A stretch of 64,000 bases of DNA. Origin: Oopsacas minuta (Eukaryota > Animalia > Porifera). The stretch is taken from positions 124,001 through 188,000 of the forward strand of contig JAKMXF010000313.1 in NCBI GenBank assembly GCA_024704765.1, read 5' to 3'. This document shows, in pieces, positions 4,177 to 29,341 of the stretch (position 1 is the stretch's first letter; every line of letters begins with the position of its first letter). Below the pieces are notes generated by a model. It saw only the letters and a list, made by a program, of their open reading frames with translations. It made no database searches and was not told where the DNA came from. The position numbers were made by a program, and so were the translations under genes.

Positions 4177-4710
<534 letters not shown>

Positions 4711-13998: not shown

Positions 13999-14369
13999 AA
14001 CTTCACATTCGTGTATAGCATTGTGGTTGTATGTAGGTTCGGACGAGTCTATTGACAGAGATTCATATAACAATTAGCATCAAACATTATTACAAAGTAC
14101 ATCATATATCCATTGTTCAATGTAGTGAATGTCTTTAATAAGTAACCCTAGTTACTAATTTGTATCTATGGAATTTTCAGTCGGCTTCTTGCATTTATTA
14201 TCTCATGAATTCTCAAAGTAGTATTCGTAACTAAGAAGCGAGATTCTCTATAAAATGTATTAATTTAGTACTTTTATTAAGACTTTAAATTCTCGATTAA
14301 TTTCTTCATTTATTGTCCTAATACCTGAAAATTATTCCTATACGTATAATATTCTCATTTACTAGCATA

Positions 14370-16805
14370 ATGGATATTTCAGCACAACACCTAATGTTAT
14401 GCAATAATATTCGAGAGAGTTCTGATTTTGAATACAATTCAGACGAAGAGCTCGCTAACAAGCCAGCTCTTCAGAACACCCCCGTGGATGTTCATATTGG
14501 TATGGACTCGTCGTACCTAAACAGACCTTACTTATCTCCTTTCTCAAAACATATTTCTAACAAACAGCGGAGATTGAATAATCATGCTTTGTTTGTATGG
14601 CTGGAGGACAACTACCAATTGAAAGACGATGAGTGTTTGGCTCGCAGCGTTATGTACAACCACTACCTAGACTACTGTAAACGAAGCAAAATATTTCCAG
14701 TCAGTCCAGCTTCATTTGGGAAGATCATCAAACAAAAATTTCCTGAATTGAAGACACGTAGACTTGGTACAAGAGGGCAGTCTAAGTATCATTACTACGG
14801 CGTTTCTATAAAGCAACAATCACTCTATTACAGATCTTCTGACCATAAAAATGGACTTTCTCGTTTTTCAACTTCACTTAGTAGTTACATCACCACCTCT
14901 ATCATCCCCAAATCAAAGAAGGAAAATTGTACTTCATGTTTTCCTAGCGTTAAGTTAAGAACGCCTCTTCCTGACTTTCCTGATACTTCCTACCTCGACT
15001 TGAAGCCTAACACTTACAAGAACAAGCTGGACACATTTATGATAATGTATCGTACTCATTGTCAACGGATAATGGACTCAGTAATTCGGGCAAATTTTGA
15101 AGAAGTAAATGACTTGATGGTACATTTTTGGCAAGGAATGCCCCAACATATGCTAGAGGTCTTAAACTATTCAATTACTTTACACATAATTACAGTATGT
15201 GACGTCATGCTCTACCGTGTGCTAGGCGAAGTTCTCATTCCGGCTTCTTTGCAGGCACTGCCTGACTCTCTCCTCTCTGACATCAAAGATTTCGCTATAA
15301 ATATAAAAGAATGGCTATTTGAAGCTCTCTCAGACTTACCCCCTAAGCTGATGATCAGGAAAATCGAGCTTGCTAAGAATTTCTCTAAAATTCTCCTCAG
15401 ACAAACTACCCTGGTTATGCTGGCACAAACCGCACGGGGAGTTTTGAGAAACTGTGACTCTGTCTCCCAAATGCTAGAAGATTGGCGTACTTTAGATTTC
15501 TGCGATATCTCACTCAGACTCACTTTTGTGAAGAAGAGTAGAAATTCGGATGACAACAACTTGGTGAGGATTCTATCTATTGAACTTGAGAGTCTGTTCA
15601 TAAAGCAAGCACCTCTTGACCTGTATCTCGAATGGATTGACTCTATGATTAACTCACTAGTAGTGATGCCTGCTGGCTCCAACATAAAGAACTTCAAGGC
15701 TCTGAGCAGACAAGTGATGCTAGAATGGTTCTTTATTGGGAGAATTATTGAAGAAGAAATGACTATCAAATCGGCTCCTAGCTTTGGTTGCTTCCGTCTC
15801 CTATACTTGATGCTGTCTGAATACATATTCTTTATAATAGAACATTTAATATATCAAAAGATTGAGAAAGGTTATGAAGATGTCCTTCGAGAGATTTTCA
15901 TTGCTCACAATCCTCACCTTCAACCTCTGGACAAGATTCCCACTCGGAACATAGAGATAATCGTGCCTGGTAACTTAGACCTATCTCCAGAAACAGATGA
16001 ACCCGAGATAACACTTTCAGACGAATGCGAGTTTCAACGTCCCGAACCGAAAGAAACGTTCCTTTACCACGATTATCCACAGTTATTTCCTAAAATACCT
16101 TCTAAGGACAACCGGATAGCATCTCTTATAGGATACCCTACTTGTCCTGCTGACACTATCCAACCCTCTACTATGCCGATTAATATTGACTACCCTTCTC
16201 CGATAATACCTTCTATTCCATTGGATCAACCTAGAGGGGTGTTTAGATTCGATTTCCCAAGGCAATCCCATTTCTCTGAGCGAATTGAATCTCGCAATTT
16301 ATCGATTCCTTCACATATTGCTTTCCAAAGCCAGCAGGCGACTGACTCTTCCGATGCTTGTACTACTCCACGACACTCCCCCACTTGCTTCCACCCCACC
16401 CACTCTCTAATTTCTGAGGAATCCATGAAGAGACAAAACCCTATAGTAAACGAGCTGTATCATGGTGACATTCCTTACCATCCTCCTGCTTTCGAGTACT
16501 CAGGAGATGAGTGTTACTCACACAGTGAAATGTCAGATATACCTGACCCGCCAATTACTCAGGGGTTGTTTCAACAGAAACAATTGTCATCTTTTCACAG
16601 TAACAATCTTCAAGGAGATTCTATTTTTCCCCAGGGCAGGGTTAACAAATTACTGCACCCTTCTCCTTCTTCTCTCCCATACGTCATCTCTGGGGATCTT
16701 CCTCAACAAGATCACGCTCTCCAACCCAACGTTCTGAATGCTGGATCCATGGTAACATCTGCTCGTCTCGTTTACCCTACTAGCATAGTTAATCATACCT
16801 ATTAA
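14370..16805 (+). CDS. RFX: RFX winged-helix transcription factor, RFX4/RFX6-like (811 aa, intronless CDS)
   Basis: RFX DNA-binding domain WLEDNY...PVSPASFGKIIKQKFPELKTRRLGTRGQSKYHYYG. The downstream MYRTHCQRIMDSVIRANFEEV...FWQGMP block is RFX4/6-like. Dimerisation region ends in SFGCFRLLYLMLSEY, followed by a Pro/Ser-rich tail. Confidence 0.96.
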   Translation: MDISAQHLMLCNNIRESSDFEYNSDEELANKPALQNTPVDVHIGMDSSYLNRPYLSPFSKHISNKQRRLNNHALFVWLEDNYQLKDDECLARSVMYNHYLDYCKRSKIFPVSPASFGKIIKQKFPELKTRRLGTRGQSKYHYYGVSIKQQSLYYRSSDHKNGLSRFSTSLSSYITTSIIPKSKKENCTSCFPSVKLRTPLPDFPDTSYLDLKPNTYKNKLDTFMIMYRTHCQRIMDSVIRANFEEVNDLMVHFWQGMPQHMLEVLNYSITLHIITVCDVMLYRVLGEVLIPASLQALPDSLLSDIKDFAINIKEWLFEALSDLPPKLMIRKIELAKNFSKILLRQTTLVMLAQTARGVLRNCDSVSQMLEDWRTLDFCDISLRLTFVKKSRNSDDNNLVRILSIELESLFIKQAPLDLYLEWIDSMINSLVVMPAGSNIKNFKALSRQVMLEWFFIGRIIEEEMTIKSAPSFGCFRLLYLMLSEYIFFIIEHLIYQKIEKGYEDVLREIFIAHNPHLQPLDKIPTRNIEIIVPGNLDLSPETDEPEITLSDECEFQRPEPKETFLYHDYPQLFPKIPSKDNRIASLIGYPTCPADTIQPSTMPINIDYPSPIIPSIPLDQPRGVFRFDFPRQSHFSERIESRNLSIPSHIAFQSQQATDSSDACTTPRHSPTCFHPTHSLISEESMKRQNPIVNELYHGDIPYHPPAFEYSGDECYSHSEMSDIPDPPITQGLFQQKQLSSFHSNNLQGDSIFPQGRVNKLLHPSPSSLPYVISGDLPQQDHALQPNVLNAGSMVTSARLVYPTSIVNHTY

Positions 16806-17501
16806 ACGTGATTATCCTACTTACATCACATCTAGACATTTCTCCTGAGAAGATTCTTACAAGGCTACGTCACTTATGTATTAATATCTCTATTGTACTT
16901 ACACTTTTCACACAGCTTTGCAATCAATTTCAATTCTCATAAACAGTGTCATCATATAACTTCTCTCTTACTATTATAGACTAATACGCTTATATTTTTG
17001 ATTCTTTATTTGTTGTAACTGATCTAACTTTTATTATAAATATGAGTCTAAGTGTATTAGTTTGCCCCAAATATGTGTATACGTATGCAGTAGATTCTCT
17101 CGTTAATACGAAATCGGTTAGATATTGCATACTACTGATTACGTCACATTGGTAAGAGTAATCATATCGTAATATATTATCAGGGTATGGGAAGTCGAGT
17201 ATATATTATAAAATGGCTATACTGATTTAACGATAACTTTAATGATTATTGACTTGCTAGCGCGCTTCGCTTGCTAGAACGGTGCGCGACAGCTTAGTGC
17301 CTCAGGTTATCTTAAGTATTAAACAGCTAAATTTCTTGATCCAGATATTCTCGGCACTAGGGGCCTCGAGTTGGAGTTATTTTTTGCTGAAATTTAATTT
17401 TTTTTATTATCCATGGTCCATCCAAATTCCATTTAATGGCCTTCTGTGGTAATACTGGATCTGCTATCGTTCTTTGGATTAGTGATCTGAGCAGTGGTTA
17501 A

Positions 17502-17673
17502 TAATGTGATTTTTCGAAAACTGTTACAATAACGTCATAATTTCGTCAGGTATGAATTTTCTCCAAGACTCAAACTTGTCCTAGCCAGGCCCAAAATGCC
17601 CCTGTATGCCAAAAATCAGCCCTCAGGTGTGTCTTCCAGTTTCTTCAATCAATTCCGAACATACAAACATATA
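17502..17673 (+). repeat. Dispersed repeat (Helentron/HINE-like 3' part); partners at 21542-21820 and ~22585-22640
   Basis: Shared TAATGTGATTTTTCGAAAA...CTTGTCC(T/G)AGCCAGGCCCA...AAATCAGCCCT...TTCCAGTTTCTTCAATCAA..CCGAACATACAA. Confidence 0.6.
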
Positions 17674-17688
17674 TGTTGTAGGAGATGC

Positions 17689-20156
17689 TGTTGAATAACC
17701 AACATCTCCTGCATGACATGTTGGCGATTTGGTGGTGTATGGCTTGAGAAGTTTATCACCGGTTTTAAAGTGAATTATGTGGCTTCAACAAATTATACTT
17801 GACACACGGATATGCTATAGGAAATGTTGTCGAATAACCAACATCTCCTGTTGGACATGTTGACGATTTGGTGGTTCAGTAGTTTATTTTATAATTTATA
17901 ATTTTATACAATTACTAAGCAACTGATAATTTAGCTAAGCTATGCTTGTGTTTTAGGTCAACTAAAAGGAATATCCAAGTAGATTGCAAAATTGACTTTC
18001 ATGTTTCGTGGTGGATTTGAATCTTTTCAGATATTAATTTCTTTTTTATCATTCCATCGTAATGGTAACGATCCCTTTGCAATAAAAGTTTTAGGGGAAA
18101 ATGATTACCAAAAAGAAGTGTATACCCAAGCAACTTGAAGTGTTTGAGTTTATTTTGATGAATTATGTGAATTTTCTCTTTAATTTTCTCCTCCAGAACT
18201 TTATTATCTTGGAAATTCTTGAGAACAGCCCGAACACTTCATCTGACACTGATAATGCAACTGAATCCAATGTTAGTTAAATATTTTACCACTGTATACT
18301 CTAATCAATAAAAGTCAACTGCATACAAGTTTTCCAAAATTTCCATCTCTTTTGGTAGGCTATAACGTAATAAATCAAATTTCCCAAGTTGTACTTTTTG
18401 TTAAAAACTTGTTTACTTGATTACTCAGCTCTTTCTGTAGGTACCCGAATGCTGCCCTAATAGGATCAATGTGCAAGCTAATTAGAGTGAGAAAATTGTC
18501 GAGGACATGTTTTATTAATTGTGTTCCATTATATTCACCTCCCCACGCAACACAAAGAGCTATAAGAGTTTCTAATTGAGAAAGAGATGGAGCAAGATTA
18601 GGTATTCTACCTAAGTGAACGTCTGAGGGAATAGCAATGAACTAATTTCTGTAGAATTTTCTTGTTTATGACTTCATCGAGTGGGATCGAGGATGAGATT
18701 GTTACGAATTGTAGATGTTACTTTAGATTTTAACTTGTGTGATTCTAGTGAAGCATTCTTATTATCAGAATTTTATACATGGAATTAGATTTGGATGACG
18801 CCCGCCAGAAGTGCAATAGTAACCACTGACTTTACGAGGACAATGTTTCGTTGCACAATTCCTCTATACGAACATTTTTTTTCTACCATGAGAAAGAAGA
18901 TTAGCAATTGTATGCATTTTATTTCTGTAGTAGGTATATTTGAAAACTTAGATAAGATGAGTCTGTCCAAGGTGCGAACTCGCCCCTCGGATAATTCCGG
19001 TCTAACATTCCTTTTCGGTTCCTACACGGTATGAATTGTTTGATACTTTGATTATCACACCTAGAATATGATTTGGACCTAGTTTGCCTTTATCTACTTT
19101 GGGGATAGGTACCCTTATAATGCTTTAAGATCTTCGACGCTGTTAATTGAATGGTTGTATTCTTCGGGTAAATGAAAATCTCGCAATACTATGGGGAGAT
19201 CTCTGTTATATAGCATTCTATAGGGACTGTTTTACAAACGCTATGTACAGTGGTGTTTTCATGTAGGCGACTTTTTCTAATTCGCTAACTCAATTGAGTG
19301 TTGAAATTTATCAAGCAAACTGGTGAGAATATTTTCCACCCGCTTGTTAGCACTCTCAACAGAGCCTTGCGATTTTCTCTTCAATGTGCTTGACACTATC
19401 CATATATCTTGATAGGTGAGTATCCAATTATATTCACCATCAGGATTAGCTCTCATATCAATGAGATCAACTTGACCTCTAGCTCCAAATCCTTCAGACG
19501 ATATTGGTTTGGTAACGAGTGACTTCTGTGACTTTTTCATTATTCTGGCTTGATGTTCGAGACTTTGCGAAAGAAAGATCTTTATCAACTCAATATTTAT
19601 GGAATACCCTTGTTCTCTGATTTTTGTGAGTAAGGAATTCCATCCTTCATAGCCAGTTTGCTCCCAACACCAATTTATTTATCAAATAAGTTCTCAAACG
19701 GAACTGCTATAAGTGATCGGTTTGTAGTTACTTTCGAGTATGGGTCAATGTATCGTAATTCTTTTACATTGCTTACCTCTTAAAGATGGAAACTTTGCAC
19801 TGAACGCTCATCTCTTTTTGTCTTGGGACCAGAAGTCAGTATGTCGATCTTCTTTTGTATTTCGAAATTGGTCCAGGCACGACATTGTGGATTGTTCATC
19901 TTTATGTTAACAACTTCTTCAAATTTCTTCCTGTTGTAATTTCAGCCATTTTAAGTATGAATAATATTAAATTTTGGGTTTACTATTTATTTGTAGAATC
20001 GTGTCGTACAACTATCGTACGACAATCGAAATAGGTATATCCGTGTGTCGGGTATAATTTGTTGAAGCCGCATAATTAACTTTGAAACCAGTGATAAACT
20101 ATTCAAGCCATATACCACCAATCGCATGACCTGCAGGAGATGTTTGTTATTCGACA
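17689..20156 (-). mobile_element. Decayed Ginger2/KRBA2-SCAND3-type integrase DNA transposon
   Basis: ~130-bp diverged inverted repeats beginning TGT (17689-17818 and 20031-20156) enclose an integrase pseudogene. A second partial left end starts at 17828. No target-site duplication recognised. Confidence 0.7.
18760..19949 (-). pseudogene. KRBA2/SCAND3-like rve integrase (transposase) pseudogene
   Basis: KPISSEGFGARGQVDLIDMRANPDGEYNWILTYQD, then an internal deletion removing the second catalytic Asp region, then SQGSVESANKRVENIL. Further down: VPIPKVDKGKLGPNHILGVII...YRVGT and a frameshifted Cys-rich tail (KCSYRG/NCATKHCP...YCTSGGRHP). Multiple stops and frameshifts. Confidence 0.85.
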
Positions 20157-20532
20157 GAATTTCCCGATTGAATTTTAATAGTGTAGATTAGTGTGTTCAT
20201 TAAAATGTGTTATTCCTGGTATCTACTGTAACTCAAGAACGAGCCAACTGTTGTATTACAATTTTCAATGGCTTGGTCCCGATGTGCTTCTGTTATAAGC
20301 CACTGTTTGTTGTAACTTGTCTTACTCACACAGATTACATTAAATTTGTGAAAATACAATAGAGCTTAAGAGAATTGGAGAAACGCTTCCCTACTTGAAT
20401 AATTATGTTGAGGTGGAATTCAGTTTAATTGAAAGTATAACTTCTGATACATTACAATTTATTCTGGTAGCTAAACTGTAAATTTTAAGTATCAATGGTC
20501 TGGTAATAGAGATAGTTGAACTGTCATGGTAG

Positions 20533-20938
20533 TACCCGACGGCCAAAGTGTTGCATATGTGGGGCTCCATAGGATTGGGAAGACGTTCACAACACAATCA
20601 ACTCTTACGCGACTCGCCATCCTATACTTCAAAAGATCCCTGGAGATAAATGGTCCGATGGCTTCAACTTTCAACGTGTCATCATATTTGATGAGCTTGT
20701 GCGGGGGCAATTCCTTTACACCAAATGGAACTCCTATTGTGATCCCGACCCGCCACTTCTCGAAATTAAGGGCGCTAAGTTGCCTAATCCAGCTACCTAC
20801 TACATTGTACCCTCAAATCGATCCCCCGAAGATCAGTACGTTCGAATTAAAGAGGAAAAACCGGCTGAATGGCAACCTACAGGCGTCGCAATACGTCTTC
20901 TCACCACCTTGCCCCTTTATCCGACGGTTTATCTGTAA
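20533..20938 (+). pseudogene. Endogenous CRESS-DNA-virus-like Rep, SF3 helicase domain (2 frameshifts)
   Basis: Reconstruction: KVLHMWGSIG/(I)GKTF (Walker A, 20560-20585), KWSDGFNFQRVIIFDE (Walker B, 20681-20695), PLLEIKGAKLP, YYIVPSNRSPEDQY (motif C, 20804-20818), and AIRLL near the Arg-finger position. Confidence 0.8.
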
Positions 20939-21009
20939 TTCACCGAAGATGAGGACAGCAATTTTCGATTTAATATAAAAGAAGAAATAAATATAGACAG
21001 AATCGGAAG

Positions 21010-21321
21010 ATGTTAGATAGAACATACGCAGATAGATTAATGGAAGAAGGAAGAGTAAGAAAATTAGACCAAGATTTGAACACAGTAAATCTATACATGG
21101 ATGAATTACAAAGAGAAATTCAAGAATTAGAAGAAAAAATAGACGGGATGGAAGAAGATCATACATATATTCTATCAGAAAGTGACGAAGATGAAGAATC
21201 ACAGATGGATACTACATGCGAATGTGGCAATAATCTAGAAGAAATACTACTTCTAGTAAGAAAAGACTTGGTAAACTATCTAAAGACCAAGAGTTTTGAT
21301 GAAAACTCAATAGATATTTAG
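21010..21321 (+). CDS. Orphan acidic coiled-coil ORF (103 aa), possibly part of the viral insertion
   Basis: ATG-initiated and stop-free, strongly purine-rich codon pattern, heptad-like LNTVNLYMDELQREIQELEEKIDGM, acidic run SESDEDEES, CECG. No family recognised. Confidence 0.4.
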   Translation: MLDRTYADRLMEEGRVRKLDQDLNTVNLYMDELQREIQELEEKIDGMEEDHTYILSESDEDEESQMDTTCECGNNLEEILLLVRKDLVNYLKTKSFDENSIDI

Positions 21322-21541
21322 AAGATTAATGGTAGTGTGTTAGGATTAGTTCATTATATTAAAGAAAAAGTCTCATTGGGTTTTCATCAAAACTCTGGAA
21401 ATGTTGATTTTTTTGTACAGTTATGATGACGTAATAATTCCATGATGATTTTGGTATATGGTCAAAATCGTCACAACGTGTGGCCGTAAACTACGTATCT
21501 GTGATTAATTTTTCAAACTTCTATCATGTATATTGGCTGAG

Positions 21542-21784
21542 TAATGTGATTTTTCGAAAATCCAAAAAAGGTGACATATGTTCAAAGACTTGTCCGAGCC
21601 AGGCCCACAATCCGAAATCAGCCCTGGGGGGTATTCCAGTTTCTTCAATCAATCCGAACATACAACATATACGTATATATGTTCTTCCCCGATACCTAAC
21701 CTGACGGTTACATAACCTGCGTTCCAATCACGCAACGGAACGTCAGGTACATAACGAGAAGGAAGTTGGGCATCCGGACGAAAC

Positions 21785-21817
<33 letters not shown>

Positions 21818-21820
21818 GAT
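21542..21820 (+). mobile_element. Helentron/HINE-like non-autonomous element, 3' part with (AT)n tail
   Basis: Homologous to 17502-17673. Hairpin ACCTGACG...CGTCAGGT (21699-21748), (AT)12 at 21785-21809, terminus CACACATAGAT. Confidence 0.5.
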
Positions 21821-24800
21821 TAATCGCGTTTAAATAGTATAGATTCGTTACAAAGAAGTAGAGGGGCAGCTCCTGACCTTAATCTCTAATATTATTCATG
21901 CATCTTCGCTCTGGAACTATTATCGCGGTCGATTTTTATGTTTTTCAGCAGACATACAATTTTCATAGTTGTATCTCTCCAGAATAAATACATGGCAGTA
22001 CAAGCCACCGAAAATGTAACAAATCCAGGCTGATTAATTTTCAACTCTCATATTCACAATATCATTCTTTAGCAGCTTCAGTATATAAAGAAATGATTGA
22101 GGCTTGAGACTACTTTAACAGCGGCTATCTGCAAATGGTCAGAGCTCTATTATGCTTGACTAACTATTGGGTCTGCCGCATGATTCTTGGTATTTTATTG
22201 GAATATACTACTCTCACGAAGTCACCATGTAATCTTGACAAATAATACGAATTCACAATTCTGAAAGTTCTCGGCTCATAATCCTTGTTATATCTGAGCT
22301 AGAGATATCTGAAGTGATCTTCAAGTTGATGTAAGTTTTGAATCTATTGTATACTAATGGTATTGAGCTTATTAGTTATATCCAGAGGGGCTGGATCATC
22401 CATAAATCCATAATTCATGGATTTGGAATTACTATCCTGTGGAAAATTGAGTACGGATTGGATTGGATTATGATTTATGATTTGGATCCATCTGCCCTTA
22501 AGGTTATATCCCACACTAGAAATCTGTTTTTCTTACTTTTCCATTTTTTCTTACTCTATTTTCATGCTCAGATTGTAAAAAATGTGAGATTTCAGCCATC
22601 CAGTTTCTTCAAACAATTCCGAATATACAAACATTCGTATACAGTAGTGGAGTGCTCAAAATGAAAGTGGTGGAGCGCCTCTAATAGTAACTTACGATAA
22701 TTGTTGGTGAAACATAAACAAAATTTAACAAAGCTTGTAGTTGTCCACAGTATTTAAATCATATATACTAATTAATACTCAATTTTTTTGTTGTTTTTCC
22801 AAAATTCATTGAGGAACTGGACTCAGCATAGTCGTTGAAAGTATGAATCTATCTATTGGCTGGACTGATTCTACCATAACTTTAGCGATTATTGTGTTAT
22901 AAGTAAATATTGGGTAAACATGTGCCATCCATGGTATCTAAGATAACTCAGTAAGGTGACAGCTTTATATTTACAAAAATTGTATATTTAATGTATGAAC
23001 ATCCTCAGATCACTTGATATTAATTCTGGAATCGAAAACACATTAGTGTTCGTCCAGCAGAGCTTCAAAATTAGGCATTTTTGACAACATATAGCCCTCG
23101 GAACGGAACCAAAGATCACGTCATTTCGAACTGGAAATAGTTGGATTACATTGCTTGTGTTGATTATTATCTTTCATACATTCTTTCGAGCTAAAATGTA
23201 CCAATTTGATATTATCGAGAATAATCAAAATGTAATGCAAATTTAATAAACTTGAAGTAATCCATGATTAAATATTATGAAATGTCTATATACGATGTGC
23301 GTGCTATTTCCCATAATTGCATTTTGCCACACTGTGTACATTCGAGTCCCCAAAACGAACACTCCGAAAAGCGGACAATCTCTCTAAACGGACAGGAATG
23401 AATATACCATACATATAATTATTACTTGTGCTGGCCCCGAATGGTGTTTCTTAATACAAAATTACCTCTCAAGAACGGATAACAAGACTAAATCGAATAA
23501 TTTTCATGGATATCACTATTTTAACAAAATATATATAGTTATACAAGTCTCGTCTCTCTCAAGCCTTTCAACAATTCTTTCATTTTGTCAGTGTAAATTT
23601 TGGGTTCATATAGGTGGTCCAGAGTGGCGGATGGGGAGCATCCCCACCAGGATAATTATACATGATATGGTATCACAGTGGTACATATTGAAATTTATGT
23701 CAATACAAGAGAAATTATTTCAAGATTCGAAGTTACCACAGTACAAAGGGAACTAATTTGGGGGCTAGTAGGACTTGTGGTCGAGGGGTCGATCAGATCT
23801 TCGGTTAGGTTTTGGCGGCGATTGAATAAAGGTATTCAAGTGTACTTCAATAAAGTTATCCTAATGCTGCATACCTATCTATGTATACTTGTATCCAGTA
23901 CAGTGCAACCTCTATAGGCAGAGAGCGGGGCACACTTTAGAGATAATTATGCCTTAGAGTTTAAATGATATGAGCAATATCCATACGAGGGGTACGACCC
24001 GTTTCTTTTCTTCAATGCGAAAAACAATCATGTGAATGTAAGGTAGACTCATTGCCAAAGCAATCTACCTCACATTCACATGATTTTTGTTGTGCGATCC
24101 TGGGTACATTTATGTAGATAGCAGACTTATCTCAGAAACTTACATTAATAACATCGCGCATGATTTAATGGAATTCCATAGATAGATTTGTCAAGTTGAT
24201 TTTCAATGAGAATGCACGTATGCTATAGAGTCCTGTTGCATATATTTCGTAGTAATTTGTATTAACGGATCATGGATGAATACATCCCATATATTTCGGA
24301 GACAACTGTATCAATAAACCATGGATTACCATAGATTTCGGAGACATTTTGTATTATCAAAACATGGATATTTAAACCCTGTAGCATATATTGTAGTTAT
24401 CTATAAAGAGGGAGGTTAATATAACTGGTCTATGCTCGATTTTCACATCCACGAAGTGTTCTCTACTGTATAGTCAAAATCGGGGTTTTTGCCTCGCGAA
24501 ATTCACTGGAAAAAGATAAATAACCCAATTCAATCACATGTGTTGATATTTTAAACAGAAATAATAACACCTTGCAGTTACGTACAGCATGAACGAGAGA
24601 TGGAATATCTGCCAGTGATGCAGAGATAATGGCAGCATCAGCAAATCACAGACAAATATTTATGTAGTCAACAACATTTATTCGAGGCGCACGCGTTACT
24701 CAAAATTTCTAAGTTGTATTTAGTTAGGATTTTGGAGACTGGTATTAGTCGGAATGCTTTTTCGGTGAGTTGGCGTTAGTCAGAAGGAGTAGCCTAATTC

Positions 24801-27701: not shown

Positions 27702-28177
27702 TACTAACTCTGACTCAATCTATGGTAACTGTGCTTGAATCATGATGTACAAATCTGCGGTAGTATAAAAAGGTTGAGAAACACTTGCTCATAGTATTTA
27801 TTTGGGAAGTTGTTACGATGTTTCCTACTGCTTTTAATCTATTATCACCTTCTCTCGTATATTCATCTTTATGAGTGTTCGTCAGTTTGTATAAATTATC
27901 TATTGATTCACTTGCTTCCTAAGAAGCTAGCTACTTGTGATTTGATTACAGTCTAATACTCTATTGTCCGTATTTTCCGTTATAGATTATGGTTAGACTC
28001 TTGATTAGTGTGATGGTACTGCTATTATTTCATCGGAAATAATTGCCCATAGGATTCCAATTTGGTTCCAATTCTTAACAACTTTGATGTTAACTTCCGT
28101 CTCGATCAAGTATATAAATCATGTGGCCTCTCTAGAAAGAAATTATACTTCTGTGCTCTATTAAACTTTATTGTATT

Positions 28178-29341
28178 ATGACTCATACGTTTTTCCTTCT
28201 TTCTACTATATTTTTCTTGATTTCAGTCTGTTTCATTTTGCAATTATTCATTTCCCACTACCTATTTATTACCACATCCCAACCACTCTCTAATGCTGTT
28301 GATCACAATTCTTCTCTCTCTTCTACCATGAACGCTTCACAATCACAACTACTAACATTTGATCCTGTCATACAATCACTTACAACAATTCCTAAACCCA
28401 ATGAAGATCTGAATATATTCGCGTTACCAGTTGGAAACGGTGATTGTACAATCGTCCAGTGTCCGAGTGGTGAGCTCATAATTATAGACGCAGGCAATAC
28501 CGGAGGAGAGGGCTGGATGGAAGCTATGATCGCTACATTCTTGAAACCTCAGCTGTCTAAAATAACCACACTCATGATAATGCATGCAGATAGGGATCAT
28601 TTTAGTTACATACCTGAACTTTTCACACTTAACGATGTTCCTAACTTAGAGAGGATAATCCTTGGTGGAAGAAAGGATGACTACACTTCTCCTCCATTTC
28701 GAAAGTGGCTTAACATGCACGCAGAGGTTGTTGAGTATATTAACAATGGAGAGCCTTGTATTGGGAAATGTAACAATGATCCTCCGCAGTGTAACGGTGG
28801 GAAAGACGGAGTTCAGTTCAGATACTTAGGAGCGAACCTTGGTAATTCTGTTGATGGTAGAAGTATTATGATGCAGATTGTAGCAGGTCCGAATTTCCAA
28901 ATGTTGCTTCCAGGAGATTTCCTAGGGTCTGATATAGAAGAGCTGCTAGTAAACGAGTGGGAGAGGAGGGGCCAGCCCCTCAGATCTACGCACTTGAAAA
29001 TGTCACACCATGGCAACTCTATACGAGCGAATAGTAAGGTGTTTCTATCAGCTGTTGCGCCTGCATTCGCATTCGCAAGTGCGAGTTACCCAGCACCTCC
29101 CGAATGGTATCCATCATGTGAATCCATTAAAACCTTACTAAACGTAGGGTCTATTCAGCTCAGGAGGGTACCAGGCCGTTTCTCATGTGGCGACGAAGCA
29201 GACAGAAAGGCAATTCAGTATGAGAATTGGCCCTACTCTATCTACACTCTTTCTCCCAATATAGGAGATTATGAAATGGTTACTATTAATGTGCCGATGC
29301 CTCCCAGGCCTCACACTAATGATTCTTATATTTTACAATAA
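28178..29341 (+). CDS. ComEC/CbpE-like metallo-beta-lactamase-fold hydrolase with N-terminal membrane anchor (387 aa, intronless)
   Basis: Motifs ALPVGNGDCTIV, IIIDAG, MHADRDH (HxDxDH), LLPGD and LKMSHHGNS follow the ComEC-like MBL order. Residues 5-30 are hydrophobic. Confidence 0.88.
   Translation: MTHTFFLLSTIFFLISVCFILQLFISHYLFITTSQPLSNAVDHNSSLSSTMNASQSQLLTFDPVIQSLTTIPKPNEDLNIFALPVGNGDCTIVQCPSGELIIIDAGNTGGEGWMEAMIATFLKPQLSKITTLMIMHADRDHFSYIPELFTLNDVPNLERIILGGRKDDYTSPPFRKWLNMHAEVVEYINNGEPCIGKCNNDPPQCNGGKDGVQFRYLGANLGNSVDGRSIMMQIVAGPNFQMLLPGDFLGSDIEELLVNEWERRGQPLRSTHLKMSHHGNSIRANSKVFLSAVAPAFAFASASYPAPPEWYPSCESIKTLLNVGSIQLRRVPGRFSCGDEADRKAIQYENWPYSIYTLSPNIGDYEMVTINVPMPPRPHTNDSYILQ

What the first reader, a model, noticed from the sequence alone, without database searches (positions are those of the whole stretch)
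20533..20938. Endogenised CRESS-DNA-virus Rep helicase hidden by two frameshifts
Seen: three successive reading frames join into KVLHMWGSIG(I)GKTFTTQSTLTRLAILYF(K)KIPGDKWSDGFNFQRVIIFDELVRGQFLYTKWNSYCDPDPPLLEIKGAKLPNPATYYIVPSNRSPEDQY, with a 1-nt loss near 20575 and a slip in the A-run at 20631-20634. Known: GxxGxGKT, KWxDGY/F...VIxDE, VEIKG and (I/V)xSNxxP..Y are the Walker A, Walker B, B' and motif C signatures of circovirus-like Rep SF3 helicases. Inference: this is a fossil ssDNA virus integration in an early-branching-type animal genome, possibly from an undescribed virus family. No single ORF in the track shows it. The HUH endonuclease half and a TAGTATTAC-type origin were not found.
Basis: partly seen in the sequence, partly recalled or inferred. 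Interest (0 to 1): 0.8.

Follow-up and report, generated by a model that had tools for sequence, protein, structure and literature searches.

The report
Fossil CRESS-virus helicase in animal genome
A 400-base, five-times-broken piece of the replication gene of a small circular DNA virus sits as a single copy in the genome of an animal that is likely a glass sponge, a fossil that likely marks the host of a virus group not found in the reference collections searched.

Summary
Window 20539-20913(+) is the helicase half of a CRESS-type Rep, 58-65% identical to five intact Reps over 120-130 codons, with no stop codon. The best solved-structure matches are circovirus Reps, not 2C or host ATPases. 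No endonuclease half or origin lies nearby. Contigs from three runs span it and its flanks with no differences at single-copy depth; a fourth shows a second allele with the same breaks. It nests among unnamed Reps plus a broken Oopsacas minuta copy, apart from circoviruses and all 70 reference-locus rows; BFVD matches reach only 26% identity. Several relatives appear repeated on single 8-12 kb contigs or lie on 2-kb contigs, likely small circles. Verdict: a dead endogenous viral element, a well-known kind. Its value is as a host marker for a probably unclassified lineage. The host (likely a glass sponge) and the relatives' capsids were not established.

The parts
20539..20574 (+). Rep helicase piece 1 (frame of 19801): strand before Walker A and the first half of Walker A
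20577..20633 (+). Piece 2 (frame of 19800): Walker A GKT and the following helix; second break in the A-run 20631-20634
20633..20698 (+). Piece 3 (frame of 19802): W-x-D-G motif and Walker B (IIFDE)
20701..20724 (+).
   Evidence: 4-7 of 7 identical in 6 of 11 relatives
20723..20875 (+). Piece 5 (frame of 19802): clade-typical CDP-x-PP, motif B' (LEIKG) and motif C (SN)
20875..20913 (+). Piece 6 (frame of 19801): arginine finger; weak similarity may run on to about 20946
20510..20959 (.). GC-rich island: 0.40-0.55 per 60 bases against 0.22-0.37 on the flanks; 0.48 over 20533-20930 against 0.364 for the window
20536..20542 (+). 7-base direct repeat CCGACGG, left copy, at the left edge of the homology (possible junction mark; lead only)
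20921..20927 (+). 7-base direct repeat, right copy, near the right edge of the homology (lead only)
19944..20126 (.). Left-flank multi-copy host repeat, on the same contigs as the element
   Evidence: depth bins and pieces; inverted copy at 17729-17813
21408..21468 (.). Start of the right-flank multi-copy host repeat, reached by the spanning contigs of X2 and X3

Best explanation
This is a single-copy, inherited, five-times-broken fragment of the helicase half of a CRESS-type Rep gene, likely captured from a small circular DNA virus replicating in a germ-line nucleus and likely non-functional. Shown: homology, breaks, missing endonuclease half, single-copy depth, joining to flanking host repeats, and a second allele with the same breaks. 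Inferred: the donor copied a roughly 2-4 kb circle by rolling-circle replication, with the HUH domain nicking the origin and the SF3 hexamer unwinding it, as established for circoviruses. Also inferred: a roughly 400-base piece was patched into a chromosome break by end-joining repair, or a longer insert was later cut down, and the piece has decayed neutrally since. It cannot make a helicase as it stands.
For: Homology. Intact relatives carry HUH plus SF3 domains. Foreign composition. Integration and real breaks: (depth 44/48/231 in X1/X2/X3, within the range of other unique contigs; no listed joint skips the element). Decay: five breaks; 3 of 19 scorable invariant and 2 of 8 near-invariant helicase columns differ (counted by hand). 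Recurrent integration: a broken member is annotated in Oopsacas minuta on a 386-kb contig, and four more members lie on unnamed contigs of 171 kb to 1.05 Mb. Small-circle donors: relatives on contigs of about 2.1-2.4 kb and as near-identical, non-identical repeats sharing one contig length.
Against: No capsid gene was seen for any relative, because their DNA could not be fetched, so 'virus' rests on the Rep alone. No listed contig bridges from the element to the nearest host gene; that link rests on the window's assembly. All four runs are one sample. No empty site or orthologous insertion was tested, so there is no age. Tree support for the 12-row subclade is only 86 (quick tree, 125 columns). 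The host name is an inference.
Confidence: 0.85

Rival explanations
1. The donor was a capsid-less Rep-only circle (satellite or plasmid-like) or a Rep-based transposon of the host, not a complete virus.
For: No capsid was seen. P0024 has a 547-residue Rep with at least five copies sharing a 12,408-base contig length, which leaves at most about 0.85 kb for other genes. Rep-derived transposons exist in fungi (PMC3198968, passages). Repeats on one contig could be chromosomal tandem arrays.
Against: P0010 (314 residues) on 2.1-2.4 kb contigs leaves room for a capsid. The element is single-copy and no transposon ends were seen. Rep-only fossils are the rule for CRESS viruses in invertebrates (PMC6069186, passages).
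Confidence: 0.09
2. The fragment has been co-opted as non-coding antiviral sequence (a source of small RNAs) or as the 5' part of a transcript running into the ORF at 21010-21321.
For: Only a weak hint: run X4 has a contig starting at 20469 that covers the element at depth 278, against 55 on the left flank. Some such elements are expressed in other hosts (PMC3198968, passages).
Against: The kind of run X4 is not on record and contig depth cannot rank expression (tool notes). Five breaks exclude a protein. No small-RNA data. This reading adds to the main one and does not replace it.
Confidence: 0.1
3. It is a contaminant or mis-join from a virus of a co-sampled organism, with sequencing errors as the breaks.
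For: Sponge samples hold circovirus-like contigs (PMC10280926 section 6; PMC7532657 passages). Several relatives show error-like frameshifts.
Against: Separately assembled contigs of four runs carry the same breaks with 0 gaps, and three span both junctions into host repeats at single-copy depth.
Confidence: 0.03
4. It is a decayed RNA-virus 2C helicase or a host AAA+ ATPase.
For: The helicase domain shares Pfam PF00910 with 2C proteins, and 2C structures match by fold.
Against: The relatives at 57-63% identity carry an N-terminal HUH domain. Circovirus and vientovirus Reps take ranks 1-9 in the fold search.
Confidence: 0.01

Closest known systems
Endogenous CRESS-DNA / circovirus-like Rep elements of invertebrates (Dennis et al. 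2018, PMC6069186; Liu et al. 2011, PMC3198968)
   Same: Rep-derived, no capsid found, divergent from circoviruses, embedded in host DNA. These papers report such elements from placozoan, hydrozoan, myxosporean, mollusc and arthropod genomes (passages seen).
   Different: The word 'sponge' occurs in neither main text. Here close intact relatives at 58-65% identity exist, while the published invertebrate elements tend to sit on long branches.
Circoviridae Rep (PCV2, PDB 7lar/8xms)
   Same: Same HUH plus SF3 architecture in the intact relatives, and the same order of Walker A, Walker B, B', C and arginine finger.
   Different: Only 24-31% identity to P0002; a separate tree clade (L006 is PCV2). 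The clade has DE/EE-F Walker B and a DP-x-PP motif, and its closest members have long disordered N-termini.
Oopsacas minuta hypothetical protein LOD99_6441 (P0011)
   Same: A broken helicase fragment of the same subclade on a long glass-sponge contig; 50% identical over 68 residues.
   Different: It is no closer to the window's element than the intact Reps are, so it is likely an independent insertion; orthology was not tested.
Circoviridae-affiliated contig in the O. minuta metagenome (PMC10280926, section 6)
   Same: Shows that CRESS-like DNA was already noted with a glass sponge.
   Different: Reported as a separate viral contig, not as an integrated element.

Membership tests
CRESS-type Rep (Cressdnaviricota) | SF3 helicase with Walker A, Walker B, B', motif C and arginine finger | tested here: met
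   All present across six frame pieces
CRESS-type Rep (Cressdnaviricota) | N-terminal HUH endonuclease, in the window's element | tested here: not met
   Clade HUH profile finds nothing in six frames of the window (best iE 0.41) while scoring three control Reps at E<=1e-13; tblastn with 53 proteins agrees
CRESS-type Rep (Cressdnaviricota) | N-terminal HUH endonuclease, in the intact relatives | tested here: met
   Viral_Rep hits in 11 of 26 proteins scanned, some below the curated cut-off; motifs aligned; P0002 matches PCV2 over residues 43-317 and HUH structures
Cressdnaviricota virus | Small circular ssDNA genome | tested here: inconclusive
   Relatives on 2.1-2.4 kb contigs and as repeats sharing one contig length; circularity and strandedness not seen
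Cressdnaviricota virus | Capsid gene | not testable with these tools
   DNA around the close relatives could not be fetched (searches found none); Pfam scans of the window's ORFs show no capsid
Cressdnaviricota virus | Stem-loop origin with nonanucleotide | tested here: not met
   No TAGTATTAC-type match in 18000-23000 for six recalled patterns; one match of the loosest seventh pattern at 21439, which has 28 matches in the window
Circoviridae | Rep groups with circovirus/cyclovirus Reps | tested here: not met
   A 97-support split separates the element's side from the side holding PCV2 (L006) and all 70 locus rows
Other named CRESS families | Rep groups with that family's reference Reps | not testable with these tools
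   No labelled references were on hand; the top 50 BFVD matches are 16-26% identical
Endogenous viral element | Joined to host DNA on both sides | tested here: met
   Contigs 19798-21439 (X2, X3) and 19798-21334 (X1), 0 differences, single-copy depth
Endogenous viral element | Germ-line inheritance (several haplotypes, individuals or species) | tested here: inconclusive
   A second allele with 2 differences in 578 bases and the same breaks in X4, but one sample only; no genome of a relative could be searched
LINE-retroposed viral mRNA | 3' poly(A) inside a target-site duplication | tested here: not met
   No A-run before the right-hand 7-base repeat; homology stops about 35-40 codons before the relatives' stop

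The most novel reading that the evidence does not exclude
The element, together with the Oopsacas minuta copy, is genomic evidence that glass sponges are true hosts of an unclassified, family-level lineage of CRESS-DNA viruses. Its living members are the intact Reps seen on 2-kb contigs and as head-to-tail repeats on 8-12 kb contigs, and the lineage has entered sponge germ lines several times independently. That would assign a host to a virus group in one of the earliest animal branches, where circovirus-like reads could so far be filtered food.
Probability: 0.45. Interest if true: 0.6.

Novelty: new member of a known kind. Interest (0 to 1): 0.4.

Why it matters
Endogenous Rep fragments are the standard way to assign hosts to CRESS viruses known only from sequencing. 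Circovirus-like sequences are reported from sponge samples (PMC10280926, PMC7532657), but a filter feeder's virome does not show infection; an inherited insertion does. If the host is a glass sponge and the intact relatives come from sponge samples, this gives a named host, a fossil record and living members for a lineage missing from the IMG/VR and BFVD searches run here. The element itself is a dead 400-base fragment with no new mechanism.

Tried and rejected
HUH half, capsid or origin in the window: not found. Idea that the relatives are 11-12 kb viruses, from their uniform contig lengths: dropped, because several of those contigs appear to hold 2-5 near-identical Rep copies; 'same contig' is inferred from equal contig length, as ids are not shown. 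DNA of close relatives: none obtained. Rep C-terminus in frame 1 at 20892-20975: no alignment. Expression: no RNA holder listed. Neighbouring ORF 21010-21321 as a viral gene: only coiled-coil noise in Pfam, NCBIfam and the Atlas, scores under 0.9, and its GC is host-like. The 7-base edge repeat: 3 matches in the window against 1.1 expected, 9 of 100 shuffles reach 3; my rough post-hoc chance of a match at both edges is about 0.05, so it is kept as a lead only. Bacterial promoter scan: at chance and not relevant. Earlier scan findings: three look-ups, nothing. A planned script for leave-one-out conservation loss and edge statistics did not run, so the conservation count is by hand. The careful tree did not finish; the quick tree is reported.

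Full report
Observation. Three reading frames on the + strand carry, in order, the strand before Walker A, Walker A, Walker B, motif B' and motif C of an SF3 helicase. The frame-3 piece has no Pfam match but hits porcine circovirus 2 Rep in the PDB at E 9e-5. It finds 52 proteins at E<=0.001 among 1.84 billion representatives, the best five at 56-63% or 43% identity; two or three weak rows are unrelated repeat proteins (P0021 is one). A frameshift-aware alignment against 11 intact relatives scores 215-387, against 25-35 for 8 other stretches of the window. It shows five breaks: near 20575, near 20633, a compensating pair near 20700 and 20723 (6 of 11 relatives), and near 20875 (11 of 11). Against the five closest relatives 120-130 codons align at 58-65% identity with no stop codon. 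GC is 0.48 against 0.364 for the window.

What is missing. A profile of the clade's endonuclease and oligomerisation part finds nothing in six frames of the window, while it scores three control Reps at E<=1e-13. No origin-type nonanucleotide of the strict recalled patterns lies in 18000-23000. Homology stops about 35-40 codons short of the relatives' C-terminus. The element is therefore about 400 bases from the inside of a Rep gene.

Is it in the chromosome? No whole genome is held. Four runs of one sample hold the region. Contigs of X1-X3 run from 19798 to 21334 or 21439 with no difference and no gap, at depths 44, 48 and 231, within the range of other unique contigs in those runs. They include multi-copy host repeats at 19944-20126, and those of X2 and X3 reach the repeat at 21408. 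The only joint listed in 19700-21500 does not skip the element. X4 has a contig over 20469-21046 with two differences and no gaps, so a second allele has the same breaks. Limits: one sample, possibly the source of the window; contigs drop rare variants; no listed piece bridges to the nearest host gene.

Host. The window has GC 0.36 and long single-frame genes for MatE, RFX, an RA-PH protein, a Rubicon-domain protein and a cold-shock protein. The RFX protein has four unnamed orthologues at 66-80% identity and falls outside the cnidarian and bilaterian clades on a long branch. Oopsacas minuta has GC 36% and 1.59 introns per gene (PMC10280926, section 7), and it carries a broken member of the same Rep subclade. 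A glass sponge is therefore likely. Against it: no named O. minuta RFX appeared among the 120 listed of 676 hits.

Relatives. The intact relatives are two-domain Reps. P0002 matches PCV2 Rep over residues 43-317 at E 2e-20 and 2C helicases at E>=0.018. Its model (mean pLDDT 77.6) matches vientovirus and PCV2 Reps first in the PDB; named matches among the top 50 in BFVD are all CRESS-type Reps, at 16-26% identity overall. A quick helicase tree of 133 rows (34 duplicate or short candidates dropped; 70 of 81 loci then held included) puts the element in a 12-row subclade (support 86) with P0001-P0004, P0006, P0007, P0066-P0069 and the Oopsacas copy, inside a 46-row group (94). A split with support 97 separates this side from PCV2 and all 70 locus rows. 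The tree has few columns and no labelled references for other families, so 'unclassified' is likely, not shown.

Form of the relatives. P0008 and P0010 lie mostly on contigs of 1.2-2.4 kb, one of 4.2 kb. The closest relatives lie on contigs of 8.3-12.7 kb, one of 20.7 kb. I read these as head-to-tail repeats of a 2-4 kb unit in long-read contigs, from replication, amplification or tandem arrays; that they are the same contigs is inferred from equal length. Five members lie on contigs of 171 kb to 1.05 Mb and are likely integrated; only the Oopsacas one has a name.

Mechanism. By established knowledge of circovirus Rep, the donor would nick its origin with the HUH domain and unwind the circle with an SF3 hexamer in the host nucleus. 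The simplest route to an internal fragment is capture at a chromosome break by end-joining, or later trimming of a longer insert; neither is shown. Retroposition is disfavoured (no poly(A), no 3' end). A 7-base direct repeat sits at both edges and may be a junction mark, but it may be chance. Decay looks neutral: five breaks, and 3 of 19 scorable invariant plus 2 of 8 near-invariant columns differ (hand count). No protein function is possible as it stands.

Comparison with print. Rep-only CRESS elements are widespread in invertebrate genomes: Dennis et al. found 93 sequences, about 60 likely integrated, all new ones from rep (PMC6069186, passages); Liu et al. list Trichoplax and Hydra (PMC3198968, passages). 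Neither main text contains 'sponge'; their supplements were not read. A Circoviridae-affiliated contig was noted in the O. minuta metagenome (PMC10280926, section 6 and passages; two supplement files searched with no hit), and circovirus-like reads are frequent in sponge viromes (PMC7532657, passages). Buck et al. describe CRESS endogenisation in sea anemones and do not mention sponges (PMC11071296, passages). Searches for sponge CRESS elements listed no such report (listings only). A broad 2021 survey of endogenous CRESS sequences across eukaryotes (recalled) was not held and may already cover sponges.

Verdict. A real endogenous viral element of a known kind, and a new member. Interest 0.4: the element is ordinary, but its close intact relatives and the second glass-sponge copy make a testable case for the host of a probably unclassified virus lineage.

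Noticed in passing
window 28136-29341 (+): Single-frame ORF (401 residues stop to stop) with a hydrophobic N-terminal segment and a ComEC-type metallo-beta-lactamase fold: NCBIfam Avs1a E 3e-10, ComEC_Rec2 E 3e-8, PDB ComEC E 2e-5, PADLOC LmuA E 4e-10; below curated cut-offs, no Pfam hit. It lies on unique contigs in X1-X4. Possibly a bacterial-type nuclease gene in an animal; relatives were not searched.
   Followed up: partly
window 20676-20736: A second, short related piece (about 35 bases by my estimate from depth) at single-copy-like depth lies over the third break in all four runs and differs there by gaps. It may mark another copy elsewhere in the genome, or be a chance match.
   Followed up: no
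window 14134-16968 and 20469-21537: Run X4 differs from X1-X3: depth 1570-3972 over the RFX gene and 278/179 over the element and the next ORF, against 25-85 on many other unique contigs. It looks like an RNA library, but its kind is not on record and contig depth cannot measure expression.
   Followed up: no
window 19280-19678 (-): 133-residue stop-free segment that resembles, from recall only, a KRBA2/Ginger-type integrase remnant. It is multi-copy; Pfam, NCBIfam and PDB searches did not confirm it.
   Followed up: partly
window 21010-21321 (+): Single-copy 103-residue ORF with a coiled coil and an acidic stretch, about 100 bases downstream of the element; no family found.
   Followed up: partly
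window 4177-4710 (-): Histone-fold ORF, 177 residues stop to stop, longer than a canonical core histone (Pfam Histone E 4e-48); possibly a variant.
   Followed up: no
window 17257-17813, 20037-20164, 21410-21700, 22599-22634: Families of short high-copy repeats, direct and inverted, around the element; likely non-autonomous transposon remnants.
   Followed up: no
P0013, P0017, P0026 (unnamed long contigs): Apparently intact Reps of the same wider clade on contigs of 523 kb, 171 kb and 1.05 Mb: candidates for young or retained integrations.
   Followed up: no
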